Below are positions 1 through 29,593 of a stretch of 64,000 nt of DNA, in pieces. The notes under the pieces are model-generated. The model saw only the letters and a list, made by a program, of their open reading frames with translations. It made no database searches and was not told the DNA's origin. The position numbers and the translations under genes were made by a program. Source of the stretch: Eledone cirrhosa (taxonomy: Eukaryota); assembly GCA_964016885.1 (NCBI GenBank), contig OZ024747.1:79732001-79796000 (forward strand). The letters run 5' to 3'. The stretch's first letter is position 1, and every line of letters starts with the position of its first letter.

Positions 1-6
1 AGATTC

Positions 7-77
7 TTCAAATCTTCGCGGGAAATTTCTCCCACAGGGCGCGTAGAGATACATCCTCTTCTACTGGCGTTGATTGG
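7..77 (-). promoter_or_regulatory. Cell-cycle-type promoter (CCAAT, E2F/CDE, CHR) pointing left out of the window
   Basis: Minus strand reads CCAATC (72-77), then TTTCCCGCG-aaga-TTTGAA (25-7): an E2F/CDE-like site with a 4-nt spacer to a CHR hexamer. Confidence 0.45.
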
Positions 78-633
78 CTGAGCTGAGCCAAATCACGCAC
101 AGAGAATGTATGTGAGCCCGCGGAATGTAGGTCACTACACACACACATATGATAGAAAGAAGAGAGAAAAACGAGACCCTTAGAAACGAATAAGAGTCAT
201 CAAAGCGATCATATGTATTGCTTTAAACTGTAATGCGAAGGGATACACTAGTATTTGAGGTACTATCATTTGGGATTTTAACCCTCGGACTTTTCCCTCC
301 CGGTTTTGAAATTTAGGGGTGACTAGGAATATTACATAATGTAGGGATTTTCTATCATTTCTTATTTATATATTTATTTATCTACTCTCGTGATTGATAT
401 TCCGACAAATGGGGTGTATTTTGGTTTTTTATTATGTCATGTATAGCATCCAAAAAATTTCTCCCTTCCCCCAATATATATATATATATATATATATATA
501 CAAACACAGTGTCCCCAAAAATGTATACACACTTCAACAGCAAAGTAATCAAAGTGTGTATATATTTTGGAGGGGACACCGTGTGTATATATATATATGT
601 GTGTGTGTGTATGTGTAAAAACGCAGCGGTATA

Positions 634-845
634 TTCTAATTTGGCCCTTTTAAGGGCCACCTATATTTTCATTTAAGTAACTCAACTTACATCTCTATGC
701 TTTAATTAAAAAAATATAAAAAACGCGTGAAAAAAAAATTTTTTTCATTTAAGTAACTCCACTTACGCGTGGTAGTAATACGGAAATAAACGATGTTTTG
801 CTTTCATCGGCTGCTTCGACTGACAGCTAATAGCATTGTAGTGCC
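634..845 (-). mobile_element. Merlin-like non-autonomous DNA element, one end, carrying a histone 3' stem-loop
   Basis: Reverse complement from 845 is GGCACTACAATGCTATTAGCTGTCAGTC...AACATCGTTTATTTCCGTATTACTACCACGCGTAAGTGGAGTT, homologous to 21213-21325. Flanked by ACCATCCG (846-853). Confidence 0.7.
643..658 (+). terminator. Orphan histone mRNA 3' stem-loop
   Basis: GGCCCT-TTTA-AGGGCC followed by ACCTATATTTTCATTTAAGT, as after the H4 stem-loop; no histone ORF upstream. Confidence 0.8.
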
Positions 846-2069
846 ACCATCCGATGTGATGAAACTGAGAAGAAAAAAGAAGACGGTTAGAGAATGAAAA
901 CTCTTGTCTAACGGAAAAAAGAACGAAGCTAGAAAATTCATTTTCTAAAGACGAGGAACTATCGCCGTGTGGAAGCATTTCTTCACCATTTTATCAACAT
1001 AAGAATCCTTTCAGAAGAAACAGTTTCACTCCAGTCCGTTCCATACATCCTTCATCAGCAACACACAAGGTACAACTCACTCGAAAACAACCTCCATCAG
1101 ACTTTTCGACGCTTTAGATATTTCTGAGGTAAGGGAAATTATTATTTATGGGGGCACCCTTTTTTTTAATGATTATTATAGCTTTGCCTTTCATCCTTGC
1201 GGTGTCGATAAAATAAAGTACCAGTAATGCACTGGGGTCGATTCAATCGACTTTCCCAATCTCCAAAGTTGCTGGCCTTGTGCCTTAAGTAGAAACATAA
1301 TTATCAAGCAAGGGATAATAATTGTTTCTACTTTTGGCACAAGGCCAGCAAACAACCAGTGTATTACTGGTACTTTATTGTATCGACCTGGCAGTATTAG
1401 TAGTGTTGGGCAAAATGTTTAGTTAGAAATTACTACGTTACCCCCGTCAAGGTTAGCCTTGCCTTTTATCCTTCCTGGGTCGATAAAATAAAGTGCCAGT
1501 GAAATACAGAGGTCGATATAATTGACTTTAGTCAATATTAAAAATAATTATTACCCCACATACCACGGGTCAAGATTTAGGACTGGCTATGGTTAAGTTT
1601 TAATTCTTTATATTTAAATTTCGGTTTGTCTTCTAGTTATACAGTAAAATTTAACCTGAAGCTCTCTATATATCTGATATTCCGACATACCTTATGGGGT
1701 CGATAAAATAAAGTACCAGTAATACACTGAGTAATTGCTGGCCTTGTGCCAAAAGTAGAAACAATTATTTATTCATAACATCAGCAAAATTTCGGTAAAT
1801 TTATAATTTAAAAAAGCACCAACTAGTGTTTTAGTTTTCAACAAATCTCAGCTCAAACTTATTTAGATTCGAAAGTTTTTTACGAATAGGCTATGTAGCC
1901 CGTAAACCCCAAAAGGACGCAACACACATCGCTATAGTGTTTCACCAGCCCCTTCATTCATATAAGTGTATGTAATAATTATTTTGTATGTGTCTATGAA
2001 TATGTATGAGATGTGTGTTTGTGTGTGTATGGGTTTCACTTCTGTTGTCTGTATATGTTTATGTATTGA

Positions 2070-3134
2070 CGTGTAGATGTGTGTGTATGTAACTCAGTAG
2101 ATGTGTGTGTGTGTATGTAACTCAGTAGATGTGTGTGTATGTAACTCAGTAGATGTGTGTGTAGGTAACTCAGTAGATGTGTGTGTATGTAACACAGTAG
2201 ATGTGTGTGTGTGTAACTCAGTAGATGTGTGTGTGTGTAATACAGATGTGTGTGTATGTTACTCAGTAGATGTGTGTGTATGTAACTCAGTAGATGTGTG
2301 TGTGTATGTAACTCAGTAGATGTGTGTGTGTGTATGTAACTCAGTAGATGTGTGTGTGTATGTAACACAGTAGATGTGTGTGTATGTAACTCAGTAGATG
2401 TGTGTGTATATGTAACTCAGTAGATGTGTGTGTGTGTATGTAACACAGTAGATGTGTGTGTATGTAACTCAGTAGATGTGTGTGTGTATGTAACTCAGTA
2501 GATGTCTGTGTATGTAACACAGTAGATGTGTGTGTGTATGTAACTCAGTAGATGTGTGTGTATGTAACTCAGTAAATGTGTGTGTGTATGTAACTCAGTA
2601 GATGTGTGTGTGTATGTAACTCAGTAGATGTGTGTGTATGTAACTCAGTAGATGTGTGTGTGTATGTAACACAGTAGATGTGTGTGTGTATGTAACTCAG
2701 TAGATGTGTGTGTATGTAACTCAGTAGATGTGTGTGTCTATGTAACTCAGTAGATGTGTGTGTGTATGTAACTCAGTAGATGTGTGTGTATGTAACTCAG
2801 TAGATGTGTGTGTGTGTATGTAACTCAGTAGATGTGTGTGTGTATGTAACTCAGTAGATGTGTGTATGTAACTCAGTAGATGTGTGTGTATGTAACTCAG
2901 TAGATGTGTGTGTGTATGTAACTCAGTAGATGTGTGTGTGTATGTAACACAGTAGATGTGTGTGTGTATGTAACTCAGTAGATGTGTGTGTGTATGTAAC
3001 TCAGTAGATATGTGTGTATGTAACTCAGTAGATGTGTGTATGTAACTCAGTAGATGTGTGTGTATGTAACTCAGTAGATGTGTGTGTATGTAACTCAGTA
3101 GATATGTGTGTATGTAACTCAGTAGATGTGTGTG
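2070..3134. repeat. Minisatellite, about 22-28 bp unit GTAGAT(GT)nATGTAACTCA
   Basis: About 40 tandem units that vary in GT number. Confidence 0.95.
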
Positions 3135-4533
3135 AATCATCATCATCATCATCATCATCATTTCATTTTACGTCCACTTTTTCCCTGCTTGCAAGGGTGG
3201 GACGGGAACTGATTCTGGCTTGATTTCTACAGCTGGATGCCCTTCCTAACACCAACCTCATTTACAGTGAGTGCTGGGTGCTTTTTTGCCGTGGCACCTC
3301 CACGACCACTTTGCAGTGGAATGATAGGGACCAGACCCCAGTCCCTATCATCTCATTTCTACAGCTGAGTAAACTGGAGCAATGTGAAATAAAGTGTCTT
3401 GCTCAAGGAAACAACACATCACCCAGTCTGAGAATTGAACTCACAATGGTTTTACTTGTTTTGTTAACAATTGATGGTGGAAAAGATTTCAAATTGTCTT
3501 AACTCAGACCGTAAAAGGTCGCAACTCGTGGTGTCTGACACTCTTATCAGCTACATAGGGTGCTTTAGTTTTCAACAATCTATCATTATTGTTCGGTGAA
3601 GTTATATTTAATCTAACGACTTTCTTTCCTTATAAATTATATTTATTACATGCATGAAAAAACCTGGAAAAGAAAAATATTCCCACCAAAGGAAACCCAG
3701 TGCCCCACCCCCCACGCTCGCCTCAGTTTTCGGGTGTGGGGGTCGATTGTGAATGAGTTGAGGTCAGATTTGTTGAAAACTAGAACACCAATGAGTGCTT
3801 ATATGTATAACGGAATACTCCTATATTTTACCAATACTCCTATATTTTACCGGCGAAGAGTCGAAACCGAATCTGGGCTTTCCCGCCTCTGGGACACTCA
3901 ATCGTTGGAAGTTCTCGCCTTTGGCCTTTGTTCTGTCAACGATGATGGATGACATTCCATTTGAACTGTGACCCCAACATCCTTGGGAGATGCTAACCAC
4001 AGGTCAGATCATATATCCATCCTTCTAACTTAGCACTTATAAATACAAGGACTGAGGGAACAAAAGCAGAATCGAATCAACAGTCAAGAAGATAACTGTG
4101 TGGCATCAGTAGACCTTTCACCCTACCTTTCTCCTGGCCCTCACTGGCTTACTCTCTCAGCCAGACAGCCAGTCATGCCTGCCTGAGAGATTGACCATTA
4201 CTACTATGAGAATAAGATAAACTAAGAATAGGCACGCACACACACAGTAAGTTCATACTGTTATATTATACTCTCATCCTATTCTTCCTGCCATATTGTA
4301 TCTGCAAGACACAACCCAACTTATATATTATATCGTCTTCTCTGATACATACATTTACATAGCTCGTAGCAGCTACCAATTTATTTTACGGATATATTTG
4401 TGTCATAAATTCTATCATTCGATATTCAAATTGAATATTGTTATTATAAAATAAACATTAACTCAGTCATGGCATTATTCTTTTCATCAAAACCATCATA
4501 CCAACAAAACAACCATTCCGTTACATATATATA

Positions 4534-7424
4534 TAATAATAATAATAATGAAATAATAATAATAATAATGAAATTATTGTGTAAAGTGCTCAGGTGCACT
4601 ACAACTCGTCAAAGGTGTATGCATAGTACATATAATAATACACAAATGTCAGGGAAGTACATGTGTGTATGTGTTAGCTGTAGTGTTGGCAGATCTCGGG
4701 AAGCATGGAGGCCTTAAAGGGTGCAGTGTCTCGACAGCTAACAACTGATGCAGGTAGTTTGTTCCATGCTTCAGCAACTCTGAGCGTGAAAAAATGTTTC
4801 AGAAAGTCATGGGAACTGTGCTGTTTTCTTACTTTGTGGGCATGTCCACGTGTGTCAGACACATGGAAATCAGAAAGGTACTCAGGGTTGTTGTTGGCAA
4901 CATGGATAACAATTTTGTGGGTGTTTACCAAGTCAGTTGCCAGGCGTCGGAGCTTCAATGAATCCATGCCCAGGGAAGCAAGGCGCTCAGAGTATGGTAG
5001 ATGCCTGATGGAGGGTATTCGCTTGGTTGCACATCTCTGAACAGTTTCCAGGCGGTCAATGTCCTGAGCAAGATAGGGGTTCCAGACTGGTGATGCAAAT
5101 TCTAAGTGTGGTCGCACCATAGCTGTATACAGCCTTAAATAGATATCTGGAGAGCGGCTGACAAAGGTCTTGCTGAGTGATGCTAAGACACCCTCGGCCC
5201 TCTTGACAATTTTAGAGACGTGCCTCGTCCAACGCAAATCGCTGCTGACCGTAATGCCCAGGTCACGTTCACAGGAAGACTTCTTGATATTAGTGCTGTG
5301 GAGGGAGTATGTGGACGCTGAGTTTTTACTCCCAAAATGCATGGTGGTGCACTTGTCCACAGCTAACTTGAGTTGCCAGTCTGAGATCCATTGTTGCATT
5401 GTGTCCAGGTCAGACTGCAAGCAAGATCTATAGTGTTCAGGATCTGTCCTTTTTATCTCAAGGTACAGCTTGATGTCGTCTGCGTACTTTAGTACTGTGG
5501 CATTCCTTAAGTTGGCATCTATGTCATTAATATATGCCACAAACAAAAGGGGGCCAAGAACAGATCCCTGTGGTACACCAGATGACATCTCATATGGTGA
5601 GGAATGCTGTCCCAGAACCGTGACTACCTCTCTTCGACTGAGAATGAAGGACTTCAACCAGTTAAAAAGATCATCCTTCACACCCATTGCAGAGAGTTTT
5701 GCCATAAGCCTTTTGTGTGGCACAGAATTGAAGGCCTTCGCAAAGTCAAGGTAAACAACATCCACCCATGAGCCGCCATCAGTGATCCGGGTGATGTCCT
5801 CAAGAAACTCTATAAGTTGATCACAGCAGCTGGAGTTGGGGATAAATCCAAATTGCGAGGGCCGGATAAGACTGTGAGAGCTCCAGAAGTTCCAAAGTGT
5901 TTCTCTGACACAGGATTCCATCAGTTTGGCGATGCAACTAGTAAGACTGACTGGACGATAGTTCACAGGTGATGTGCGGTCACCCTTTTTGAACAGAGGA
6001 ATGACACTGGCAGTTTTCCACTGTTCTGGAGTAGCACTGTTGTTCAGACAGAATTGGAAGAAGCGTGATAACTGGTGTAGAAGGAAGTATCCACCACGTT
6101 TAAGAAGCAGGTACGTAACACCATCAAGACCAGGAGAGGCATGGTTGCGTTTCTTTTTTAGGTGACATCGCAGCATTGCAGGTGTAAATTCCATGGTTGT
6201 AATAGAGTCCGGTGTCATAGGTGGTGGAGATGGTACACTCTGGTCTTCAATAGTGAAAATGCCTGCATAGCATTCAGCAATGAGCTCTGCGCATTCCTTG
6301 GGGTCGTCAGTAACCTGGCTTGTGTGGGGATTGCGGAGAGGACCAACTGGAGAGTGAGGCCTCTGCTTTGAGTGAACATACTTCCAGAACACCTTACTGT
6401 CAGGGCTGGTTGCTATGCGCTGCTCAAATTGAAGCACTGCCTTTTTTGTCACCTGTTTGAGGTGGTTGGACGATCTATTTCACCTCTTCCTATTAATGTC
6501 TGATTTGTGAAGTTTGTACTCGCATTCAGCATTGCGCCGTTCTTTTCTGGCAAGACGGACTGCTGCAGTCTCCCAAATTGCACTTTTGGGATGTTTTTTC
6601 CGCTTACATGGCACCGATGCTGCACATGCTGTCCATATTGAGCTCAGGATGTTCTGGAGTACAGTGTTGACATCTCCAGAGTCGTAGAACTCAAGCCAGT
6701 TTGGCCGTTGCAACTCGGTGCAGTAACAGTTCCAGTCTGCTTTATTCCAGTCAAAGTGAGCAGTTTGGAGATGGTTGTGCTTCTTGTTACTGCCCATGAG
6801 GGATAGATTGGCAATGATCATAGCATGATCAGAGTCACCTAAAGGTTCCTCAGCAGTAACACTAATGACCGTTTCAGGAGTAGTGGTGAAGAGTAGGTCC
6901 AAAGTGTTGTCACCTCTCGTTGGGGAGGTGACCACCTGGGACCAACTCGAGTCCAGCACTAGCTCAAGGAAGTCATTTGCACTTGGCGGCCAACGAAAGG
7001 TTTCCCAGTCAATCTCAGGGTGATTGAAGTCACCTGCAATGAAAACATAAGTGGCTGTCTTCCTGGCAGCAGCTCTGAGGATATCACAAAGTTGAGTGTC
7101 CTGATGGTAATTTGGGGGACGGTAAACGACTCCAAGTAGCAGTGTTGACATGGTCATACGTATATCGCAGAAAAAAACTTCCTGCTGTGATTGGTTCAAA
7201 TCAGCACAAGGAATTGCCGACAGATTTGACCGAACGTAGACCATTACACCACCACGACGATTAATGCGGTCTTTACGAAACAGGTTGAGGCCAGTCATGC
7301 TGAAAACCCCATCACAGAGTAAGGGATGTGCCCAAGTTTCCGTGACTGTAATGAAGTCAGGGTTGATACTTTTGACGTAGGAGTCAAAAAGGTGAATCTT
7401 ATTGCATAGACTACGTGCATTCAA
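4534..7424 (-). mobile_element. CR1-clade LINE, 5'-truncated, ORF2 (APE endonuclease + reverse transcriptase) with one in-frame TGA
   Basis: ORFs 6480-7424 (NARSL, ITVTETW, GDFNHP, LDLLF, SDH) and 4674-6452 (YLDFAKAF, GVPQGSVLGP, YADD) are in the same frame; (ATT)n tail at about 4534-4575. Confidence 0.93.
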
Positions 7425-7427
7425 TAT

Positions 7428-7462
<35 letters not shown>

Positions 7463-8152
7463 GATAATATATATATATATGATAATAAACAAATAAGACA
7501 GTTACTTTTATTCCATCCCTATTTTATTATACATATTTCAAAGATGTATTGCTTATGTATAGCATCAGTGAAACATGTACTCATCAGATAAAATTCACCA
7601 ACTTTCTCTTTTAGAGATGTTATAATAGTATATTAAATATCAAATCATACATCATCATCATCATCATCATACGTCCGCAATTCACCAAGTGCGACAATTG
7701 ACTGTACCTCTAAGTGTTTAACTAAACACTTAGAGGCAAGCCAACATGCTCGCAGCATTACCATGGGTGATGGCGAGGTTAAGGTGCTGAAATAATCAAG
7801 CATCATCTTACATCTAATGAGAAATATGTAAGAAAACAAAAATATATTTTGTTTAACCCTTTAGCATTTAAACTGGCCGTACCTGACCAGAATTCTCTCA
7901 CCTCTGGGAAGGAAAGCTGTGCTAGAGAAATCACATCTAACTAAAAATGATAACCTGATGTTTGCTTGTGGCAACTATTACGTCTGCTTTCTATGCTGAC
8001 ATGGACTGGGCTGATAATCAGTTTGAGGCATGACATAATTCAGACACCTGCCTATGGATGAACAGTCGATTAGGTGTGAAACAAGCAACCACCTATATTT
8101 CTCTGTGTACAAAAAGAATAACAATGTTCACATTATTTACAGCAAGACTGTA

Positions 8153-8355
8153 TTAACCCTTTAGCATTTAAACCAGCCAGAATTTTCTCACCTCTTTCTG
8201 TTCAAACTGGCTATAACAGGTTGCTCATACTGATGTTAATTCTCAAAATAAATATCAAAATCTCATAGATTCAATATTATGTGAGATAATTATGTGAATT
8301 AAAGCCTTTACAATACAATAGTAAATATAGAGTAATGCAAAAGATAAAGGGTTAA
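8153..8355. mobile_element. piggyBac-like MITE, representative copy (others about 7854, 12539, 13035, 14430, 32421, 42595, 42898, 49020, 51661, 57619)
   Basis: TTAA-CCCTTTAGCATTT...AAAGGG-TTAA termini and a shared internal sequence. Confidence 0.8.
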
Positions 8356-9782
8356 AAATGTCTTATATATCATTTTTACATTACAGCTGAAGAAAGTCAA
8401 AGATAACAGGAGTGATTCTGTGAGAAATGGCCCCAAATCTGACGGTGTGAAAACAAAAGAAAACAGCCCTAATGAAGATTCCAGGAATAAGGTTGGCATT
8501 CCTGTCTATTTCTAACTTCCTAAGGACATCATTATCATCACCGTTTTACGTCCGTTCTTCCATGCTAGCATGGGTTAGACAAGTTGTCCTGTTGTGGGCA
8601 GTAGTCGGTCGGCTGACCTTGTCTTGCTCATACAGGAACTGATTCTGGCTTGATTTCTACAGCTGGATGCCCTTCCTAACACTAACCTCATTTACAGTGA
8701 GTGCTGGGTGCTTCTTTTTTTTTTTTTTTTTCCGTGGTGCCTACACGTCCACTTTACAGTGTGGGCTGGGTGCTTTTTTACCATGGCACCTCCACGACCA
8801 CTTTGCAGTGGAATGATAGGGACCCCAGTCCTATCATCTCATTTCTACAGCTGAGTAAACTGGAGCAATGTGAAATAAAGTGTCTTGCTCAAGGAAACAA
8901 CACATCACCTGGTCCGAGAATTGAACTCACAACCTTTCGATTGCACTAAGCCATGCGCCTTCATCTAGAAATGTTTTAGTTTAAATATCAATATATTGAG
9001 GGTATTTTGACTTTTTATTTATGTTAACCCTTTAGTTACCAACACGGCCAAAACATTTACTGGTTCACCACTGGATAGAACTGGTAATTCTGTATAGTTA
9101 ACTATGATGTAATAGTGGGAAAAGCACTGTTATGTAACTCATCCATCTTTGATGGCCATTGAAGTACTTACAGTAATAAAAATTTGAAGGAATTTCACAT
9201 GTCCGGCCTACTGTCATTTTACTCTATAATATATATATATATAAAAATCCGAATGGATGCAGTAAAAACCAGTTAGACCAGAGTATTCGATACTTGGGGT
9301 AGTAGAGTGTGGTAATATGAAAAAATCCGGGCCCGACGGCTGAGCTCTTGCTGTTTCAACAGCTAGATCCGACACACCTTCTTAACAATGTACCGTTTAT
9401 TTTGAATTGAGATTTTGGGGTCTAGTAGATGATTGACATGCTGAGTTTTCACATATTTTTGTAAGAAAACTTGCACCTTTACATGAATGTATGTGGTGAG
9501 GATAGACAACGGCCAAAGTACCTTGTCGTGGAACTGAACCCAAATTCTTATGATTGGTTTCCAAGCCAAGTTCTTAACCAAATAACCCAGGTATGATTTA
9601 CTGTGTTCCTGCTGTGAGCCAGGCTCCCAAACTGTGGTTTCGCACCTATCTCTCATAGTGTCATCATCCAGTATCGGGCCCCCTAAACTATAGTTACACT
9701 GTGATATGGGTTCTGCACAGCTAACTGGCCTGTCTCTTCTTATGGCGGTGCCATCCAATACTGGGCAATGAAACTATGGCTA

Positions 9783-10628
9783 TGCTGTGAGGTGGGTCAG
9801 TCTCCTTGTATCGGTACTTTCTAGTAATGGGCTGCTGTGAGGTGGGTCAGTCTCCTTGTATCGGTACCTTCTAGTACTGGGCTGCAGTGAGATGTCAGAC
9901 TCCTCATATCGGTACCTTCTAGTACTGGGCTGCTGTGAGGTGGGTCAGTCTCCTTGTATCGGTACCTTCTAGTACTGGGCTGCAGTGAGATGTCAGACTC
10001 CTCGTATCGGTACCTTTCATTACTGGGCTGCTGTGAGGTGGGTCAGTCTCCTTGTATCGGTACCTTCTAGTACTGGGCTGCAGTGAGATGTCAGACTCCT
10101 CGTATCGGTACCTTTCATTACTGGGCTGCTGTGAGGTGGGTCAGTCTCCTTGTATCGGTACCTTCTAGTACTGGGCTGCAGTGAGATGTCAGACTCCTCA
10201 TATCGGTACCTTCTAGTACTGGGCTGCTGTGAGGTGGGTCAGTCTCCTTGTATCGGTACCTTCTAGTACTGGGCTGCAGTGAGATGTCAGACTCCTCATA
10301 TCGGTACCTTCTAGTACTGGGCTGCTGTGAGGTGGGTCAGTCTCCTTGTATCGGTACCTTCTAGTACTGGGCTGCAGTGAGATGTCAGACTCCTCGTATC
10401 GGTACCTTTCATTACTGGGCTGCTGTGAGGTGGGTCAGTCTCCTTGTATCGGTACCTTCTAGTACTGGGCTGCAGTGAGATGTCAGACTCCTCGTATCGG
10501 TACCTTTCATTACTGGGCTGCTGTGAGGTGGGTCAGTCTCCTTGTATCGGTACCTTCTAGTACTGGGCTGCAGTGAGATGTCAGACTCCTCGTATCGGTA
10601 CCTTCCAGTACTGGGCTGCTGTGAGATG
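9783..10628. repeat. Tandem repeat with a 98-bp dimer of related 50-bp and 48-bp subunits
   Basis: GGGCTGCTGTGAGGTGGGTCAG... alternates with GGGCTGCAGTGAGATGTCAG...; about 8.5 dimers. Confidence 0.95.
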
Positions 10629-11176
10629 GTTCTGTTATGAGAGGGGTTCGGTGCTTTCTGCTGGCCTGTCCCTCCTCATGATGGAGCCATCCAGTCACAC
10701 TGTTAAAAAACCTGGCTAAGTTTACAGTCCTCGTCGGAGCAAGGTGCGACATGGCCATGCTTGGTTCCCGGCATGGAAGAATTGACGCTAAATGGAAATG
10801 GGGATGATGATCTTATATGCATTCTTTCTCTTCCCTTTGCAGGTGTGGCTAAAAAGGAGGATCTTCAAGCTTTACCTGTTGATTGGAGTTTGAAACAGAA
10901 GATGCGATTTATCTGTAATTTCTCATCATTTGATTGGTGTAAAAACTTACGTACATCTGAAGAAGCTGAAGATGTGAGCAGTTATTTAGCAAATCAACTC
11001 CCTGAAACAACACCACCATCTTTCACAAATGTTAGTAGGTCTCCCTTCAAGAAAGGCTGTTTATTATCTATTGTTCTTGAGTGATGTCATTATTTATAAT
11101 ACAACAAACCTGTCATCGAAAACATTACCGATCTTCTCGGAAGTCTATCTACTGCTACTATTTCTATTACTGTTAA

Positions 11177-11365
11177 GGGTGGTGTATTGGCAGTATCGGT
11201 AGAGGGTCGGGCGCCATGCTTTCCAGCATAGTTCCTTTATGGTCTCAGTTCAAATCCCACAGACGTTAACTTTGCCTTTCATCCTTACCAGGGTCGATAA
11301 AATAAAGTACCAGTATTGCACTGGGGGGTAATTGCTGGCCTTGTGCCAAAAGTAGAAACTACTAC
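11177..11365 (+). mobile_element. tRNA-derived SINE, octopod-type; more than 20 copies or fragments in the window (e.g. 19730, 27262, 36624, 41400, 43021, 44214, 46975, 53655, 54150, 57050, 59195)
   Basis: A-box TGGCAGTATCGG, B-box GTTCAAATCC, conserved core GCCTTTCATCCTTAC..GGTCGATAAAATAAAGTACCAGT, 3' GCTGGCCTTGTGCC..AAGTAGAAAC. Confidence 0.85.
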
Positions 11366-14039
11366 TATTTCTGTTACTACTACTGCTGCTACTATCCAAT
11401 ATGTCCATTTTTTTTCTTATTTAAGACAAGGGCAGGATTCCCCAACCTGGAGTGGGTAGGGTCTGAGCTAAGTAGTGCAATGTTAATCCACAATTAGTGG
11501 TACTGCTTAACCACCAATTAACAAATGAACCCCATTGCTGACAAAACAGCACCCCCCTCTCTCAATATATATATATTAATAATAGTAATAATAATAAATT
11601 TGAAGACTAAAATCCAAAGGGGGCTCGATAAGAATAAATATATATAAAATATATAAGTTTGATATATATCAAATATATAGTTTCAGAAGATCCCGTTAAG
11701 GGTGAAAGCAGCGATTCTTTACTTAAACTTTAATCTGTTATTTTAATAAATATATATGTATATATATACGTATATGTATATAATCATCATTTTACGTCCG
11801 CTTTCCCCTGCATGCAAGGGTGGGACTGGTCCTCTTCAACACAACATCTCTCAATTTGTTACAGTCCTTCATCTCCTTTAAGGTCAGCTCTCACCACCTC
11901 CGCCCATGTCTTCCTCTATTGCATCTTCCTTCCACTGGGATTATATATATATATATATTTTATATTTTAGTTGAAGGCACTTCCAGAGAGTTCTTGGCGA
12001 TCCCGTTTTCACAGAGAATGTTTGTACTGGTAATGATAAATACACATATATCATCATCATACGTCTATTTCCCATGCTTGCTTGTGTTAGACAGGTTGTC
12101 TTGCTCATACAGAACTGTTTCTAGCTTGGTTTCAACAGCTGGATGCTCTTCCTAATGCCAACACATTACAGCATAGACTGGGTATTTTTTGTCATGTCAC
12201 CTGCCCAACCAGCTTATAGGGTGGACTGGGTGTTTTTTGTTGTCACCAGCACAACCACCTTTACTGGGTGCTTGTGTATATTTTGTTTTTTGAATTTAAT
12301 TTTGAGTTGTTTTATTTTATATATCTTTTCACTACCAGGGATCCAATTCAAGATGCCATTTAATCCAAAACACTCGGAACGGCTATCCTTAGAATCCAAT
12401 GACTCGGGTAATGGAAGCCAAAAATCTAGAAATTCCAGGTGAAGAATTGAACATAATGGGCTCAACATCTGAAATAGAGGCAAAGAAATGGGTGGAATTA
12501 TGTAGCATTCTTTCCTTTCTGCTGACCAATTAGTAACTTAACCCTTTACCATTTAAACTGGCCATAACCAACTGCTCATACTTATGTTAAGGTATTGTTC
12601 TCAAAATAAATATCAAAATCTCATAGATTCAATATTATGTGAAATAAACTGTTCACTAAAAATACAATAGTAAATATAGAGTAATGTAAATGCTAAAGGA
12701 TTAACCCATTTCATACCAAACTGCTCATGGTTTTGTAACAAAGCTGTTTATTTTAAAGTGTTTATATTTATCTAACAACCTGCCATTGTTGTTTGACATC
12801 AGAACCTATGTTTCAAATACCACCTTAATAAGAACATTACTTATATTACTAACTTCCTTCAAATTCTTGATTATTTTCAAAAAGATTTCTAAATTATAGT
12901 TAATCACTTATTAGAAATATGGTAATGAAAGTTTAGGCTTTCCTGAAAATTCACCATTTTCCTCATTACTTTACATCCAGTTTCCATTTTGCCATTAATT
13001 GGACAGTTTATCACAATCCTAATTAGTTCTTATTTAACCCTTTATCACTTACATTACTCTATATATAATATTATATTTTCATGGTAAAGGCTTTACCTTA
13101 CATAATATCAAATTTATGAGAATTTGATATTATTTTAAGAACAATACCTTAACATCAGTATCAGTGGACAGTTTGAACAGAAAGAGGTGAGAAAATTCGA
13201 GCTGGATATGGCCAGTTTAAATGCTAAAGGGTTAAAGTTGTGTTGCATGTATATAGATCAGCGGTTCCCAACCTTTTATAATAAATTCCACCTTAATGAT
13301 ATAACAAAACAGTATGGCATCCAAAAAATTAAAATTTTTGATATAATTTTTTTATGTAGAAATAATTTTGGCATGTCTTTTTATTTGTGAAGTAAAATCA
13401 TAATTAGAAAAGGTAGAAAGTTGATAAAAAGTTGAATATAAAAATTTAAAGCAAGAAAAAGAAAAAATTATGTGAGGAAACTACTCTTCTTTTTTATGTA
13501 TAAAATTTTGTGATTTTTAGTTAATTCCCGTGGCTCCCCCAATAACTTGCTATGGCCCCCTGGTTGGGAACCAATGATATAGATAGATATACACTATGGG
13601 CATTCACACATTTTCTGTCTACCAAATTTTACTCACATGAACTCCTTAACCACACCACTATGGCTCTGCCTATATTTCATATAGTGATACCTGAACGCTG
13701 TTTATTTATTTCTCTCTTTTTTATCACCTAAAATCTGTTTTTTATTTGCAGCATCAGTTCACAGAATTCATTGAGTGAAGAACAAGATTGCCGTGGTGGT
13801 GATGATGATGAACATGATGGGGAAGCTGATTTGTTTGAAGAGGAGGAAAGCACTAGCCTGACTTGCAACACGGAAGAGACACACTGCAAAAATTTACAAC
13901 CAAATAAACAAGTGGAAGGTGAGGAGTATGAAGAGGAGGAAGATGGTTTCACAGCAGACGAAGGTGCTGCTGTGTGGTTAGAAAGTATCGGGCTTGATAA
14001 GAAGAATTTCCCTTCTTTGAATCCCAATAAAGTTCGACT

Positions 14040-14048
14040 GTATCCTTT
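14040..14048 (+). other. U12-type (minor spliceosome) 5' splice site
   Basis: GTATCCTTT directly after the DONSON exon ending ...NPNKVRL. Confidence 0.8.
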
Positions 14049-14899
14049 TCTTTTACGATGTGTGTGTGTGTGTGAATTTCGTATATCTAAAGATATACGT
14101 TATGTTTAATAAATAAACATTTTGAAAGCTTCGGCTATGAATAGAAGGCCAGCGCCATCTAGTGGAATCCAGCAGATGCAAGGGGGATAATTGTCTATGC
14201 ATTTCAAACTTTAAGGGTTCTCGTCAGGACAGTGCTTCCCTCTGCCGACTGCTGGACTTTGAAGCAGATGTGATACCTTACAGAACTTCTTTCAACCCTC
14301 TGCATTCTCAGCTAGCTTGTGATGACACTGGTGCCATGTATTGGCCCTTATTTCTCCCTTGAACTCATCTGTCTTGTGAATAAGGGAGACTTGTGTACAT
14401 TGGTAACTCCTGGTTTCCACAGAAAATCTTGAGATTTTGATATTACTTATTTTGAGAACAATACCTTAACATCAGTATGAATATCCAGTTACAGCTGATT
14501 TGAACAGAAAGAGGTGAGAGAATTCTTGCTGGATACGGCTGGTTTAAATGCTAAAAGGTTAAGGAGTTCATTTTGTAATCATTTAGTTTTGGGTTCAACC
14601 TCACAGTATGAACCCTTTGGAAAGTGTTTCACTGAAGCCTTGAGTTAACCAATGTCTTGTGGAATTAGGTGACCATGTCTTGCTCATACAGAACTGTTTC
14701 TGGTTTGGTTTCTATGGCTAGATGCCCTTTCTAACGGCAACCACATTTACAGCATAGTCTGCATGCTTTTTATTGTGGCATCAAAACAACCAGGTTGGAC
14801 TGCGTACCTTTTCAACATGTCACCAATATCACCATTTTTCAGGGTGGACTATATATATATATATATATATACTAGCCCACCCGTGACTCGTTGGATCAC

Positions 14900-15650
14900 G
14901 TTCACTGGAAAAGTAATTTTTAAATAACACTTCATCAACCACGTGCAGTTCTCTGGCTACAACCAAAGAGACAGAATCAGCGTATACAAAAAAGCCACAG
15001 AGAAATATAAAATCCTCATAGAAATGGACATGAAGGTAATTTGCCCATTATACGAGAGCAAATCATGGAATAGTTTAGATAGGACTAAACATAAGATAGG
15101 GAAAGCCACTTCATGGTACGACAACCAGAAATACGAGATTGTTATGTTCGTGGATGGTACCCCAGGAGGGAAATTAACAAAGCAATGTAGAAAGGCCCCA
15201 AGAAAGACCCATCTAAAGATTAAAGTGGTAGAAAAGCCAGAAACTACCATAAAAACCCTGATCAGAAAAACATACCCCTTTAAGAAAACCCACTGTACGA
15301 ATAAGAAATGTGTTATATGTAGAATAAACCCTCAAATAAATTGTAAAACTAGAAATGTAGTCTACACCATAAAATATACAGAGGGCACTTTCAGAAACAT
15401 AACAATGACATACATAGGTGAGACAGCTCGAAGCATAGGAGAAATAATAGACCAACATTGGGGGGAACTAAAAGGACAAAAAAAAAAAACGGTTCAGAAC
15501 TATATGAACACGCCAGACAAAGACATGGTGGTAATATAGACAACATAGAAATTAAAATAATATCTAAACATAGAAATGACTCAACAGGTAGGTAAATCAG
15601 AGAAGCAACTGAGATAGAACTAAGAAGACCGAAATTGGACAGAAAGAACG
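14900..15650 (+). mobile_element. Penelope-like element fragment (RT C-terminus/linker + GIY-YIG endonuclease)
   Basis: ORF 14943-15539 with C..C..C..C, then NVVYTI...YIGETARS. Confidence 0.85.
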
Positions 15651-16883
15651 AATGGAATAACAACAACAACCATACCCAAACAAACAATATTGACTTAAAT
15701 GAAATATAAATAAATAAATAAATAAATACACAAGTACAATAACAACAAACACATAAACACACACTAGTGAACAAAGATACAATACAAAAACAAAAACACA
15801 TACACTCAAACGCTAACACACACATGCAAACGCATGCGCAGAGAAGAATAAATAAATAAAGAACGAAAATAAAAATGGCGTAGACATTACAATACAATGG
15901 GAGGAAACATAATAGTACCACTGACGATGATAAACATTGATTGCCAAATAAATTAACTATGGAGATATAAAAGATACAGAAGCGAAAACCAACCCAAACC
16001 AAACAGTGAATGTGTTCTGTTACTATCTCTGGCAATATTATAACAATATGACCCTCCCCACCCAAGTATAATAATATTTGTTTCAACACACGATTTCATA
16101 TCAAAAACCTTGCAAAACATATATATATATATATATATATTTAATACATTAACAGAGAAAGCTTTAAGCAATACTCCGACCGGCTTCTGTCTCACTCAAC
16201 AAACATTAGGATATACCTTAGTATAATCCCAATTATACGTTTGGGGTGCTAACTATACGTATTTTGCGGATAGCCAGTTGTATTATTTAATATGAGACAT
16301 AATTAAAATACATCTCTCTTTCCAAACGATCGTTTCATTATAAGTTTTCTACAAATTGGGAAAATAATGTCCAGGTTATGTAGAAGCCTACACATAGTCC
16401 GTAGGAATATATGTAGGTGGGCACTTATAAATCATCAGTGGATGCCTGACAAATATCGATAAAAAAAATCTTACCGATATTAACGTTCAGCGATGGTACC
16501 CCTCCGTGCCAGAATGACCGCCAAATTTGAAATTCCAGTAATCTCACACTGCCATCAAGCGGAAAGGGAAGGTCATCGCAAAACATAAACAAATAAAATA
16601 ATATGCACGCGGGTCAATTAATTCTTTCAATAATTTTAACCATGCGTGAAGAACTCAATTGGATATAAGCATATATTATTTATACACGTATATAGGTATT
16701 TTCTTAGGCTAAAAACAGAGATAAGATACCGGAAGAACAATCAATATTTCATACAAAGAATAAATACGAAAAGTCATACCTAAAAAGTATCTGGAAATAT
16801 TCATCCCTGGCCAAATCAAGAGTATAATATTTAATACATTAACAGAGAAAGCTTTATAGTTATGTAATAAACAACATAAGATA

Positions 16884-16947
16884 ATTCATTTACCAGTGGT
16901 TTCTTGAAGACAGATATTTATATCTGTCTTCAGTCGTCAGAACGAAT
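16884..16947 (-). ncRNA. Type I hammerhead ribozyme motif
   Basis: Minus strand: AUUCGUU-CUGACGA-c-UGAAGACAGAUAU-aa-AUAUCUGUCUUCA-a-GAAA-CCAcUGG-UA-AAUGAAU. Confidence 0.7.
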
Positions 16948-18859
16948 AATATATATATATATATATATATATACAAAAATTCTTCTTCACCCACTTATTC
17001 CTGAGAGGGGTGTATGTCGTGTGTGTGTTGAGGGTGTCGTGTGTGTATGTATGTGTGATTGTGTGTGTCGTGTGTGTTTGGTAAGCTGACAAACAGTTTT
17101 CCCCACTTCGTGTTCTGACCACACTAAGACAATTACTAAACCTGTATTTCCCACTCTACAGTCCACACTCATCCATGCCAAATCATATGACATGTCATAA
17201 CCCCATACAATCTTTAACACAGTGCAACATAGATGTTTAGGTGTTTATTTATTAATTATAAAACTGTGATCCTTAAAGTTTCTGAGGTCTCCCTAGTTGG
17301 CCTTAATGGTAGCAGCGGCCCTAACCTTAGATGGATGCAAATGTTGATAACTAGGGAGTAGGATGGATTTAGGTACCCCTAAAATGACGTGATAATCAAA
17401 TGGGATGTCTTTTACTCATATACCTTGTTAACCTGGATCTAAACCAGAGATGGGGAACCATAGGCCTTCTATGCCATTCTGTGCAGCCCTTTATGAAAGT
17501 TTCCAACAATTTTTTTATTTTAATATGTTTTTGTCTATCTCTTATTATTTCAATTTAAACCACTTGTTGCTGTGAACCAACATTCTCCTACCTAACCAAA
17601 ATCATGACACCTTTGAGATTACAAATGGTGGTTGCCCATCTAGAGGTTCAGTTGAAACTTCAGACTTCCATACTGCAACCAAATATCAATTTGCTTTCCT
17701 ACAACAAAGTAATTAAAACCTTTAAAACTGATTTTTTTTTTTTGTTTGATTTTTTCGATAACTAGTACATAGTAATTAGATTTTTACAAAATAATGTAGA
17801 TTTTAAGAATATGTAATTACGGTTTCTTGAATGCAGCCTTATTATATTACAAGTAACTTAATGTGGCCTTTTTAGAAACGGTTCCCCACCTCTTGTCTAA
17901 ACAATAACTAGCTTAGTGATTTTCAGCATTTCCACTACTAAGGACCCCTTTTTATTTAAATGGATTTTCCCATGGCCCACACATAACAATTATTCCCCTG
18001 CCAGAGTAACAGTTGAAAGAGAGAAATGATTAGACCGTAAAAAAAGAATGGATACTCAACAGCGTGTGTGTATATTATGTCAATTGAAAGTTTGAACTTA
18101 GCTCACAGATCCCTAATACTACATTTGAGGACCCCATGGTTCCGCCGACCACAGTATGGGAACAGCTAAACTATCCCAACATTTTAAATAACTATTTTAA
18201 GTGCCAACACTTCTCTCTGTAAAAAGCAACTTTTATAAGGGAGATAATTAAATATATATTATTAATACAATTGCCGAGATTTACTTGAATAAATAAAGCG
18301 TTATGTTTATAAATGCGATTAATATTTTATAGGATTGTGTTTTTACCTATATAAATTGCTTTGAATTTAGTGAATTTTGATAAAAGGCTCATAAGAAATG
18401 TTATTTTTATGAATTAAACATTTGATCTTATTTTGAAATTTTGATAGCAGTTATTCCCCTTGTTGAAGCTGTCTTGTTTAGATTAAATTAATCATAATTG
18501 TATGTCTTGCGGAACTCCATGATTCCAGGGAACACCGGTTGAGTGGATTGGCAGTATCGGTAGAGCGTCGGACAGCATGGAGTTATGGCCCTTTACGTTC
18601 TGAGTTCAAATCCCGCCTAGCCTTTGAGGACTCTTCCCTAACGATTCTCCCAAGAAGAAGTAACGTATTGTATCAATGAAATCGACTTTTTCCTCCCCAC
18701 AAATTGCTGGCCTGGTGCCTAAATGACATTTTTATTTACAGAAATATTTATATAAAGCAATAAGGAAATGAAGAATAGAAGAAAAAGAAAAGAAATGAAG
18801 AAATTAAAGAACGAATGGAAAGGATAGGGAGCAACAGATGCTACACCTTTATCTCAGCG

Positions 18860-19230
18860 GTATCTTTCAGCTTCCTCCTGTAGACAAAATGGCGAAAGCA
18901 TCGCCTCGTAGAACGGCCAGTGATTCCGACTGCAACATCATCCACTCCGTCTCATGGGACTCCTCCCTTGGGAAGACTGCTGTTTTTTTCGATTTTGCGA
19001 AAGAAATGGCAGTTCGGTGACTTAGATCAACTCAATTCTCGACGGTAAATCCCTATTCCGAGATGCCACGTGTTGCGTCACGTTCTCCGCCTCTAGCCTT
19101 GTTGTTTCGGCTGCAAACCTAGACATTATCGTTTGCAGAAGAGGAGAAAACTGCCAAATACCGGGGTTTCACTGTCCGCTTCTTTTCCACGTTGGATGCT
19201 GTTGAGACTTCAGGTGTCCTAAGAGCCTAA
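18860..19230. mobile_element. Degenerate CRE-clade retrotransposon 3' fragment with internal inversion
   Basis: Plus strand about 19041-19230: DGKSLFRDATC...AEEEKTAKYR...AVETSGVL. Minus strand about 19020-18868: ...EWMMLQSESLAVLRGDAFAILSTG. Both align to ORF 58022-58798. Confidence 0.75.
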
Positions 19231-19246
19231 ATTAGAAATCATTGTA

Positions 19247-19479
19247 CAGGGTGACCACAAAAACACTCCTTGATATCAAATACTTATATGGAAACTTAAA
19301 TGAATATTCTTACAATATTGGTGGCTACAGTTGCATAAACTAACAAAGTTTCATGTGGTATTGGTTGATATCATAGACACTCTATTGCCTCTATTGTTGA
19401 TTGGCAAACATCTATGCGATAATCACGTAGGTTTTGATAGAACTATTTGAAATCAATGAGTGTTTTTGTGGTCACTCTG
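19247..19479. mobile_element. Tc1/mariner-type MITE
   Basis: TA-CAGGGTGACCACAAAAACACTC...GAGTGTTTTTGTGGTCACTCTG-TA. Confidence 0.85.
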
Positions 19480-20017
19480 TATCTTATATTACTAGTGTAT
19501 CTATGTCCTAAAAAGTGCTAATTTTTCTGGGGACTGTGTTGGCAGTGGCAAACATTGGTGGGCTATTTAATATAGACGAGATACTCATTATTTCCATCGC
19601 TCTTAAAATCTGTGTCGATGTATGCAGAGTGATGGAATGGAGTATCGATGTGGGGAGGATGGTCGCTAAATAGTTGTGAACTTTTTTTTTTACCTTTTAT
19701 TATTGATTTCTACCTTTTATTGATCTGTTAGTATCGGTAGAGGGTCGGACGCCATGGTTTGACGCATAGAGTTACGGCCCTTGCTATTCTGAGTTCAAAT
19801 CCCGCCGAAGTTAACCCCTTACGGGGTCGATAAAATAAAGTACCAGTAATAAACTGGAATAATTGCTGGCCTTGTGCCAAAAGTAGAAACAATTATTTAT
19901 ATCAAAATGTTAGCTGCTAAAAGCTGTGATTTGCAGAGATTTGCTATTTCTAGAAGATCAAAAGACTACTCAATGAGTTCCGGGCGTTGAAAAACAAAGG
20001 GAGATAACTTCCACCAG

Positions 20018-20128
20018 TGACGTCATTCTGTTTCGCGCGAAAATTTAGTTATATTATTGTCGCTGCCTTGTTATGTTGGCAGTTTGAAAATATATTCAAA
20101 ATATATAATCGTCGCACCTAAGGTAAGA
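20018..20128 (+). promoter_or_regulatory. Probable DONSON promoter and non-coding first exon
   Basis: CRE/ATF site TGACGTCA (20018-20025), palindromic E2F site TTTCGCGCGAAA (20031-20042), donor AG|GTAAGA at 20122; about 1.05 kb upstream of the DONSON ATG. Confidence 0.55.
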
Positions 20129-20159
20129 AAACATCACTGAATCATCACTTTCGAGCTAA

Positions 20160-20899
20160 GGCGATATCCAATTTTAGCTGTCTAAATGCCGCTTAGTTGC
20201 TGCTTACTTCAATGTATGAGGCTATTCCAACAGATTTACATTCCCCCTTTTTTTAGCCGTTAAAAAAAATATAGATTTATTTATTTTTATTTGTTTGCGA
20301 TTTATTTGCCACTGGGGCATAGATTTCTTTATTTGCCCCTTTTTTGTTTGTTTGTTTTTTTGCAATTTATTAGCCTTTTGGGGTCACACACTCCCCCGTA
20401 GAAAGTGTGCGACCTTTCTGCCAGGGAGCACAGAGAGAGGGGGGTGCTCCCTTCTTCTCTTACCTGTACAAGCCGATATAGAGAGATGGCCCACTTACAC
20501 GGGCCATTATTGCTACTTTCACCCATCTTTCATGGAATTGGCTGGGACTGAGTGCCTTTTTCGGGTGAAAGTAGCAATAATGGCCCGTGTAAGTGGGCCA
20601 TCTCTCTATATCGGCTTGTACAGGTAAGAGAAGAAGGGAGCACCCCGCTCTCTCTGTACCCCCTGGCAGAAAGGTCGCACACTTTCTACGGGGGTGTGTG
20701 TGACCCCAAAAGGCTAATAAATCGCCAAAAAACAAACAAACAAAAAAGGGGCAAATAAATCGCATAAAAAAAAAATAAATAAATCTATATTTCTTTTAAC
20801 GGCTAAAAAAAAGGGGAATGTAAACTTGTTGGAATAGCCTCATACATTGAAGTAAGCAGCAACTAAGCGGCATTTAGACAGCTAAAATTGGATACCGCC
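20160..20899. mobile_element. Foldback MITE, GGC termini, 8-bp target duplication (Merlin-like)
   Basis: Inverted arms about 20160-20525 and 20563-20899; flanks CGAGCTAA / CGAACTAA. Confidence 0.85.
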
Positions 20900-21175
20900 C
20901 GAACTAATATAGAACATACATTTATAACTTTGAAACTTAAAAAATGATATATTTATTTCAATATGTATAAGGATGCTACCTTACGATTATTTATTTTACA
21001 TTAATTATCAGCGAACTTCTGTAGAATATATTTATATATGTATATTTGAATATTTATAAGCAATAAATAATTGTATCTACTTTAGGCACATGGCCAGCAA
21101 TTACCTAGTGCATTACTGGTACTTTATTTTATCGACCCCGTAAGGATGAAAGGCAAAGTCAACCTCGGCGGGATA

Positions 21176-21212
21176 ATGACGGACACATCGCCCACTTGGA
21201 AGAAACCATCCG
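21176..21212 (+). pseudogene. DONSON: Displaced DONSON start (MTDTSPTWKKPS)
   Basis: Joined to 846 onward through ACCATCCG it reads MTDTSPTWKKPSDVMKLRRK, resembling the vertebrate DONSON N-terminus SPGFRKPPEVVRLRRK (recalled, not searched). Confidence 0.8.
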
Positions 21213-21378
21213 GGCACTACAACGCTATGAGCTGTCAGTCCAGTGGAAAACAAGCGAAGGTGACGTCACTCGTCAACATCGTTTATTTCCGTATTACTAC
21301 CACGCGTAAGTGGAGTTTTCACGCGGTTTTTTGAGAGAGAGGGGGAAGACTTAAAAGGGCCAAATTAGAAAACAAGTC

Positions 21379-22432
21379 GGCATACGTCAAAACGGCCGGC
21401 CGCAAAAGTGAAACTAATTTTTGACAGTTACGTACGTCATTATTTTAATTTTGGATTGTGAAATTGTTTGATTTTATGCCTATATATATATATGGTGGCT
21501 GCCAACTCGTTTTCGAGTACGGCCACTACTTTATATCCATGTAGGAGAACCCCTACCGATGCGCTAAACAAGTGTGACTTTTAGTCCAGCCAGCGACTTG
21601 AAAACTCTGGTACAAACACTACACCTGTGACAATTATTGACACATAGTGTTGGGCCTTTGGTACCATGTGACGACAAGTGTAGAGAGATCTCCAGATATA
21701 AAGCAATGCCTGTGCCGTGAAGCTTTTATAGTGAGCAAAGGCACTGCACAAAGCCAGTCCCACTCTCTTAACCCAAGATGATATTTACCAAAAAGAAGAA
21801 TAAGTCAACATCATTGGATACCATCAGGGTTGCAGGTGTTATATCAGAGTTTTCCTTCTCTTAGAATTCTGCCTTGACAAAGGCTAAGGGGTCATCTCTC
21901 CCGGTGATTTTGGATGGCCATTGACTCTTAAGAGCTCCTTTGCCAGGTTTTGTTTTTAGTCCTGCAGGATGTCCAAAGTCACCCTCCTCACCAAGAAACC
22001 TTGGTGGGGTTGCCAGTTTAGTCGCCAACGACCCGACCATGGGACAGGTTGTACTGGGATACATGTTACCAGTAGCACCAACTGGTGACCTGACATAATA
22101 TATATATATATATGCATACATACATACATATATGTATACATATGCGTATATATATACATACACACATATATATGTATATACACACACACAATATATATGT
22201 ATGTATATACAGACATATATATATGTATATATATATATATATATATATGAAATACTGTTGGCTTCACGCTCACAATTATTTCTATACTTTCATTTATATA
22301 TATATATATATATATATGGCATATATATATTGTAAAAAAACAAACAATTTCACAATCCAAATTGAAAGTAATGACGTACGTAACTGTCAAAAATTAGTTT
22401 CACTTTTGCGACCGGCCGTTTTGACGTATGCC
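21379..22432. mobile_element. Nested TIR element with GGC termini and about 90-bp TIRs
   Basis: GGCATACGTCAAAACGGCC...GGCCGTTTTGACGTATGCC; flanks AACAAGTC / TTACAAGTC. Confidence 0.8.
21560..22095 (-). mobile_element. Interspersed repeat (probable LINE 5' region), homologous to 26121-26520 on the plus strand
   Basis: Shared CCCAGTACAACCTGTC.CATGGTCGGG.CGT.GGCGACTAAACTGGCAACCCCACCAAG. Confidence 0.6.
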
Positions 22433-22494
22433 TTACAAGTCGTGGTTATAAAGCATATCGATGTAAGTGGAGTTACTTAAATGAAAATATAGGT

Positions 22495-22510
22495 GGCCCT
22501 TAAAAGGGCC
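22495..22510 (-). terminator. Orphan histone mRNA 3' stem-loop, second copy
   Basis: Reverse complement GGCCCTTTTAAGGGCC-ACCTATATTTTCATTTAAGT. Confidence 0.8.
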
Positions 22511-22665
22511 AAATTAGAAAACAAATTTAAGTTAATTAGAAAACAAGTCATGGTTATCAATGTAGAAAACAAGTCATTCATAAATTTAAGTTTTATAATC
22601 AAATTTTTTTCACAATAGCGTTGTAGTGCCCGCAATTCTGTATCTTTACGTATATTGTGCATAGA

Positions 22666-26685: not shown

Positions 26686-26717
<32 letters not shown>

Positions 26718-28589: not shown

Positions 28590-29593
<1,004 letters not shown>

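What the first reader, a model, noticed from the sequence alone, without database searches (positions are those of the whole stretch)
830..21230. DONSON segment circularly permuted between two inward-facing transposon ends sharing one 8-bp target duplication
Seen in sequence: ...TTGTAGTGCC|ACCATCCG at 846-853 and ACCATCCG|GGCACTACAA... at 21205-21212. Merging the two 8-mers rebuilds one reading frame, MTDTSPTWKKPSDVMKLRRK. The promoter and ATG half lies 20 kb to the right of the half that should follow it. The right element's outer flank (CGCAATTC) does not match its inner flank, so it is not a simple insertion. Established: reversed-ends transposition of maize Ac can circularise the intervening segment and reinsert into it, giving a permuted segment bounded by a target duplication. 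Inference: the same reaction happened here with Merlin-like ends, using the same end type from two oppositely oriented copies. The circle-closing joint should lie between 14050 and 20000.
Basis: partly seen in the sequence, partly recalled or inferred. Interest (0 to 1): 0.9.

Follow-up and report, generated by a model that had tools for sequence, protein, structure and literature searches.

The report
Gene-plus-transposon circle reinserted among histone genes
A broken partial copy of the DNA-replication gene DONSON sits on a second chromosome with its two halves swapped and a giant Merlin transposon split around it, most likely because a gene-plus-transposon DNA circle reopened inside the transposon and landed among histone genes, beside which this transposon family is common and whose H4 mRNA-end signal it carries.

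Summary
The permutation is real. Intact DONSON lies on C11 with one ACCATCCG; the window (C7) holds C11:26146956-26158969 followed by C11:26142000-26146963, joined at 14701-14925, 2.07% diverged, and dead (core exon deleted, last two exons absent, frameshift). The pieces left and right of DONSON are complementary, non-overlapping parts of such an element, with no outer ends; the 66-kb block sits between histone H2B and H4. So the transposon is permuted too. Best reading (0.6): one ordinary insertion into DONSON exon 1, then a circle that reopened inside the element and integrated on C7 (eccDNA-type duplication). Reversed-ends transposition remains a rival (0.25 for two versions). No second case was found; read support is untested. 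Side result: the family carries a 64-bp copy of an H4 3' end (Rfam Histone3) about 130-150 nt behind its transposase stop, and occurs at 4 of 10 histone clusters examined.

The parts
1..845 (+). B-side piece of a giant non-autonomous Merlin; it starts outside the window at C7:79692737 (window -39263, about 265 bp after an H2B stop), matches reference copy E1 from about 11.5 kb to its end, with an internal tandem triplication; B tip at 845
638..682 (+). Histone 3' stem-loop with downstream flank inside the Merlin subterminal repeat, a copy of an H4 3' end
   Evidence: Rfam RF00032 at gathering score on L001:1293-1337; H4 match
846..853 (+). Target-site duplication, copy 1 (ACCATCCG)
846..14700 (+). 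DONSON downstream block = C11:26146956-26158969: 3' part of exon 1 (846-1128, frameshifted) and exon-like stretches near 8387-8491, 10843-11030, 12340-12437, 13752-14040 (boundaries inferred from frame and GT/AG)
12025..12030 (+). Site of a 3.1-kb deletion against C11 (26153254-26156365) that removes the conserved core exon
4536..7417 (-). LINE-like insertion absent from C11 (label from recalled RT motifs); a second C7-only insertion with a 98-bp satellite lies at 8814-10773
14701..14925 (.). Circle-closing joint: continuation of a dispersed repeat, a (TA)n run and a 57-bp multicopy repeat end (hairpin plus CTAG on the minus strand, Helitron-like by recall); no Merlin sequence
14926..21212 (+). 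DONSON upstream block = C11:26142000-26146963: upstream DNA, promoter region, ATG at 21176-21178 and first 12 codons; C7-only insertions at 16144-16854, 20160-20899 (foldback) and about 21060-21172 (SINE-like, directly before the ATG)
21205..21212 (+). Target-site duplication, copy 2 (ACCATCCG)
21213..26918 (+). A-side piece of the giant Merlin (reference positions 1 to about 4.4-4.8 kb): A tip at 21213, internal TIR at 22630, then cargo; broken at 26918 inside a LINE-like frame that runs on in full copies
22495..22510 (-). Second histone-type stem-loop, in the A-side subterminal repeat
28593..28901 (-). Histone H4 of the recipient cluster (right flank)
29183..29593 (+). Histone H3 of the recipient cluster

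Best explanation
The block is a circularly permuted copy of 17 kb of the C11 DONSON locus with a giant Merlin transposon split around it, likely made when one element inserted into exon 1 and the element with its flanks then likely formed a circle that reopened inside the element and integrated between H2B and H4 on C7. Shown: the permutation, the 8-bp duplication at a B and an A end, the complementary element pieces, the histone flanks, the decay of the gene copy. Step 1 (inferred from the duplication): Merlin transposase put a 27-kb element 29-37 bp behind the DONSON ATG, on the chromosome or on an already formed circle. Step 2 (inferred): a repair joint closed a circle of about 45 kb, 5 kb upstream and 12 kb downstream of the insertion. 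Step 3 (inferred): the circle broke inside the element, lost about 6.5 kb and was joined by end-joining into the histone cluster; a multi-switch copying event would give the same sequence. The C11 allele with the insertion would have been lost; the present C11 gene is whole. Because histone clusters are frequent Merlin sites here, the break on C7 may have been the element's own excision site (untested).
For: Two swapped collinear blocks against C11. Inner ends are B and A. Of the conserved core of four full copies, the left piece and the right piece share 0 bp in all four. No other family tip in 194 kb (-90000 to +104000) except a degenerate 30-bp end at -41297. Both outer junctions cut through sequence that is continuous in full copies and carry no TIR or duplication. 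Histone genes flank both sides: H2B stop 265 bp left of the block, H4 1.7 kb right of it, in an 8-gene cluster; a whole giant copy sits between H2B and H4 in a C2 cluster. Ages agree: C7 vs C11 198 of 9581 sites (2.07%), so about 1% per lineage, and the C7 pieces carry 0.95% (A side) and 1.18% (B side) private changes, within the range of the other copies (medians 0.87 and 1.32). The order efghij-abcd at a distant site is the published signature of eccDNA-mediated duplication (PMC7188851, abstract, introduction and start of methods read).
Against: Non-overlap of the pieces is only about 50% likely evidence by itself if two copies were truncated at random. The test for one source copy failed to discriminate: the family is star-like, with 14 and 8 minority-shared columns spread over many copies. 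No empty C7 allele and no C11 allele with the insertion was seen. Histone clusters are enriched for this family and two giants in direct orientation 490 bp apart exist on C3, so a reversed pair on C7 is plausible. Several full copies have unmatched flanks (10 of 20 exact, 4 with one mismatch, 6 worse), so end exchange between elements may occur in this family.
Confidence: 0.6

Rival explanations
1. Two giant Merlins sat in direct orientation in the C7 histone cluster; transposase used the facing B and A ends (reversed-ends transposition) to attack DONSON exon 1, either on a free DONSON circle or on C11 with later re-joining, and both outer element parts were deleted afterwards.
For: B and A ends facing a segment with a shared 8-mer is the maize geometry (PMC3744419 and PMC4270019, passages read). 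Merlins cluster at histone genes. A direct-orientation pair exists at C3:252.54-252.61 Mb. The giants themselves look like composite products: a whole small element at one end, one end only at the other.
Against: Needs two further deletions that remove both outer tips, spare the neighbouring histone genes and leave no overlap. None of 5 other back-to-back A/B pairs checked shares an inner 8-mer.
Confidence: 0.2
2. A circle carrying DONSON with its inserted element recombined homologously with a resident element on C7, giving element-segment-element; the outer parts were later lost.
For: Gives the same inner junctions; orientation equals that of the resident giant in the C2 histone cluster; 27 kb of 97% identical sequence is ample for recombination.
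Against: No outer tips and no outer duplication; needs two deletions.
Confidence: 0.1
3. One reading: the DONSON segment already lay between two elements here, was cut out as a circle by reversed-ends transposition and reinserted into itself.
For: Predicts the permutation, the duplication and one joint, all seen.
Against: Leaves unexplained how a C11 segment came to lie between two elements on C7; C11 has no family tip in 150 kb around DONSON; ends are not of one type; outer ends are missing; the joint holds unrelated repeats.
Confidence: 0.05
4. Assembly artefact or a mis-placed haplotype of the C11 locus.
For: No read-level check was obtained.
Against: 2.07% substitutions, copy-specific insertions and deletions on both sides, a base-exact duplication, no N in 194 kb.
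Confidence: 0.03

Closest known systems
eccDNA-mediated (circular-intermediate) duplication: human cases of Takahashi and Innan 2020 (PMC7188851, part 1 of 4 read); cattle KIT and tilapia vasa as summarised in bioRxiv 10.1101/2022.06.22.497135 (passages read)
   Same: Two blocks in swapped order on one strand at a distant site, donor kept, one new internal joint.
   Different: Here the opening lies inside a DNA transposon, so host gene and element are both permuted, and a target duplication marks where they were joined; the copy is a dead gene fragment.
Maize Ac/fAc reversed-ends transposition and Composite Insertions (PMC3744419, PMC4270019; passages read)
   Same: A 5'-type and a 3'-type end face a segment and share an 8-bp duplication; the giant elements resemble Composite Insertions in build.
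   Different: The segment is foreign to the site, the two pieces add up to less than one element, and outer ends are absent.
Merlin/IS1595 superfamily (PMC8101967; passages read)
   Same: 5'-GG termini, 8-bp duplications, DDE_Tnp_IS1595 transposase, internal tandem repeats; the paper lists Merlin as abundant in Octopus bimaculoides.
   Different: Copies of 22-40 kb and more with repeat-rich cargo; a histone H4 3' end in both subterminal repeats; enrichment at histone clusters. The word histone does not occur in that paper's main text.

Membership tests
Merlin DNA transposon | Terminal inverted repeats beginning 5'-GG | tested here: met
   289 exact matches to the 28-nt end, paired + and -; feature taken from PMC8101967
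Merlin DNA transposon | 8-9 bp target-site duplication | tested here: met
   7 of 8 pairs exact; 10 of 20 exact and 4 with one mismatch (two pairs overlap); 3 of 5 exact among transposase-type giants
Merlin DNA transposon | DDE_Tnp_IS1595 transposase between the same ends | tested here: met
   PF12762 frames end about 390-550 bp from this TIR; 4 of 5 F-type giants carry it; best relatives are Octopus PF12762 proteins, 73-85% identical. The window's own copy and E1-E4 show no such frame, so they are non-autonomous
eccDNA-mediated duplication | Blocks in swapped order, same strand, donor elsewhere | tested here: met
eccDNA-mediated duplication | Recipient flanks unrelated to the donor and once contiguous | tested here: inconclusive
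   Histone genes on both sides; no empty allele seen
eccDNA-mediated duplication | Circle observed | not testable with these tools
   Old event; template switching gives the same sequence
Reversed-ends transposition product | Opposite end types facing the segment, sharing one duplication | tested here: met
Reversed-ends transposition product | Two separate elements, each with its outer part | tested here: not met
   No outer tips in 194 kb; pieces complementary; test of separate origin inconclusive
Reversed-ends transposition product | Permuted segment native to the site between the elements | tested here: not met
   Segment belongs to C11; site is a C7 histone cluster
Histone-type mRNA 3' end | Stem-loop with downstream element in sense behind a coding frame | tested here: met
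   RF00032 at or above gathering score, 133 nt after the transposase stop in L176; 5' flank differs from histone genes (TAATTT, not C/A-rich)
Histone-type mRNA 3' end | Transcript ends after the stem-loop, SLBP/U7-dependent | not tested
   No RNA data laid

The most novel reading that the evidence does not exclude
This Merlin family has taken over the histone programme: it ends its transposase mRNA with a captured H4 stem-loop, so it is active in S phase and homes on histone clusters; an element jumped from the C7 cluster into DONSON exon 1 and its own excision break (or its reversed ends) captured a circle made from the new site. That would be a transposase-driven route for moving host DNA through circles, and a DNA transposon with a non-polyadenylated, histone-type mRNA.
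Probability: 0.22. Interest if true: 0.85.

Novelty: new variant of a known kind. Interest (0 to 1): 0.58.

Why it matters
The locus is an unusually self-documenting circular-intermediate duplication: host gene and transposon are permuted together and the target duplication fixes the original order to the base. It shows that facing transposon ends with a shared duplication need not mean reversed-ends transposition. As a single dead gene copy its biological effect is small. The wider value lies in the family it exposes: giant Merlins of 22-40 kb, a captured histone 3' end behind the transposase and enrichment at histone clusters give a direct test of whether a DNA transposon can time itself to S phase through histone mRNA processing.

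Tried and rejected
Outer partner with flank CGCAATTC: 0 genome matches; explained, since it is internal. One versus two source copies: 24 other copies projected on the C7 pieces (one of 25 dropped as mis-oriented), star-like, inconclusive. C7 as birthplace of the giant family: not supported, since C7's pieces are ordinary in private changes, both outer junctions break continuous element sequence, and a transposase-bearing F type shares the B-side cargo further in than C7 reaches. Recurrence: among 82 A ends, 77 B ends of one variant and the first 100 of 135 B ends of both variants, 5 other back-to-back A/B pairs were found by eye, 0 of 5 share an inner 8-mer; 3 B/B pairs also do not; degenerate ends are missed. 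Helitron-driven circle: the short repeat end at the joint is multicopy and abuts (TA)n, not a head-to-tail junction; not favoured. Histone genes as cargo: none in E1-E4 or F1-F5. Stem-loop in other Merlin families of this genome: only in the 2 of 30 transposase loci that have this TIR. Literature searches without a relevant hit: (strict all-term searches of open papers only). Earlier findings of this scan: none.
Full report
OBSERVATION. The window is G000:C7:79732001-79796000 in a 3.0-Gb genome; its Merlin transposase is closest to Octopus proteins, so an octopod is likely. ACCATCCG follows TTGTAGTGCC at 846 and precedes GGCACTACAA at 21212. A search with 846-1130 gave 2 matches, the window and C11:26146956. 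On C11 the 8-mer occurs once, inside an open exon 1. A C11 exon matches Xenopus-type DONSON in PDB 8q6o_R, E=1.5e-12 (species recalled). The C7 copy differs at 198 of 9581 aligned sites (2.07%), lacks that core exon through a 3.1-kb deletion, stops before the last two exon-like frames at C11:26159330 and 26160890, has a frameshift giving TAG at codon 25 and carries several insertions absent from C11. It is a pseudogene fragment.

THE ENDS. The 28-nt end has 289 exact matches, many paired + and - at 18-60 kb. Paired ends have 8-bp duplications: 7 of 8 and 10 of 20 exact plus 4 with one mismatch (one pair was mis-oriented and read correctly). Two end types follow the shared tip: A and B. Window 845 is B, 21213 is A. 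The TIR at 22630 with flank CGCAATTC is an internal feature of the A side in full copies. PF12762 frames end 390-550 bp from the same TIR in smaller copies, and 4 of 5 giants of a second type carry the transposase and share the B-side cargo. With GG termini and 8-bp duplications this meets the Merlin definition given in PMC8101967 (passages read).

THE ELEMENT IS PERMUTED TOO. Four full copies (26.7-28.7 kb) were aligned to 194 kb of C7. Left of DONSON lies element sequence from about 11.5 kb to the B tip (window -39263 to 845, lengthened by an internal triplication and satellite growth); right of it lies the A tip to about 4.4-4.8 kb (21213-26918). Conserved core shared by both pieces: 0 bp in each of the four references. 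No other tip exists in the 194 kb apart from a degenerate 30-bp end at -41297. Both outer junctions cut sequence that is continuous in full copies, without TIR or duplication. Outside them lie histone genes: H2B, H2A, H3, H4, H2A, H2B on the left, H4 and H3 on the right. The joint inside DONSON holds a dispersed repeat, (TA)n and a 57-bp multicopy repeat end, no Merlin sequence; the labels LINE, SINE, Penelope and Helitron used for such repeats are recalled, not tested.

MECHANISM. Read as a circle, the 66-kb block is simply DONSON upstream - duplication - A ... B - duplication - DONSON downstream - joint, opened inside the element with about 6.5 kb lost. One ordinary insertion, one circle and one integration explain all five junctions (0.6). 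Ages fit a single episode: about 1% per lineage for the gene copy, 0.95% and 1.18% private changes for the element pieces, against medians of 0.87 and 1.32 for other copies. This matches eccDNA-mediated duplication as defined in PMC7188851 (part 1 of 4 read), with cattle KIT and tilapia vasa as known cases (passages of 10.1101/2022.06.22.497135, which also notes that template switching can mimic it). Against certainty: non-overlap alone is weak; diagnostic sites could not tell one source copy from two; histone clusters attract this family and a direct-orientation pair exists on C3. No second case: 0 of 5 other back-to-back A/B pairs share an inner 8-mer, from lists that miss degenerate ends.

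WHAT THE FAMILY CARRIES. Both subterminal repeats hold a histone 3' stem-loop: Rfam RF00032 at or above its gathering score in L176 (twice) and at window 638-682. The stretch is 96.9% identical over 64 bp to the 3' flank of the H4 gene at C7:67458180; a 34-nt piece has 455 exact matches. In transposase-bearing copies it lies in sense about 130-150 nt after the stop. The five bases before the stem differ from histone genes, which may weaken SLBP binding (recalled). With the H4-derived part masked, matches above 60 bits mark 8 separate elements in 3 of 9 other histone clusters (170 kb scanned, including the left part of this cluster), and 0 in 311 kb of background whose best noise score was 59.9; this cluster is the fourth of 10. 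The background was not random, the threshold was set after seeing the noise, and local hopping makes insertions within a cluster non-independent. One whole giant lies between H2B and H4 on C2. Whether the signal is used is untested. Searches found no paper on this in the open library; subscription papers and Repbase were not searched, and no supplements were read.

VERDICT. Real, confirmed by an intact donor; a new variant of circular-intermediate duplication rather than a demonstrated reversed-ends event. Interest 0.58, lifted by the giant, histone-associated Merlin family; the boldest reading (histone-type transposase mRNA, histone-cluster homing and transposase-linked capture) has probability 0.22.

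Noticed in passing
window 638-682 and 22495-22510; L176:2148-2192; source-like H4 at L151:1842-1910: Merlin subterminal repeats carry a 64-bp copy of an H4 3' end (stem-loop and downstream element), in sense behind the transposase stop.
   Followed up: partly
C2:321.54-321.57 Mb, C7:93.70-93.74 Mb, C7:7.88 Mb, this cluster: This Merlin family occurs at 4 of 10 histone clusters examined, often within 20-750 bp of a histone stop; at C7:7.88 Mb it sits right behind an H2A stop.
   Followed up: partly
C1:72240579-72267247 and about 80 A ends genome-wide; F type e.g. C1:155773155-155798795: Two types of giant Merlin (22-40 kb and more) with repeat-rich cargo; the F type keeps the transposase at one end, the E type begins with a whole small element, a build like maize Composite Insertions.
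   Followed up: partly
L197/L217, L200/L220, L204/L224, L211/L231, L046/L047: Several full-length giants have flanks that differ at 3-6 of 8 bases, which may reflect end exchange between copies.
   Followed up: no
C7:79692737-79714560 (left of the window): The element's 11.5-19.2 kb part is present three times in tandem, with an expanded satellite; other copies seem to have such repeats too (C1:63.50 Mb).
   Followed up: no
window 20160-20899: 740-bp foldback insertion (arms 95-97% complementary) in the DONSON promoter region, absent from C11.
   Followed up: no
window 14040-14048: The donor site after the acidic exon reads GTATCCTT, which looks like a U12-type intron (recalled consensus); also on C11.
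   Followed up: no
window 18830-19230: GC-richer block about 2 kb upstream of the DONSON ATG, conserved with C11, possibly the first exon of a divergent transcript; no clear frame.
   Followed up: no
L174 (C1:45539700-45543300): Two transposase frames pointing away from each other within 3.6 kb, each followed by a stem-loop.
   Followed up: no
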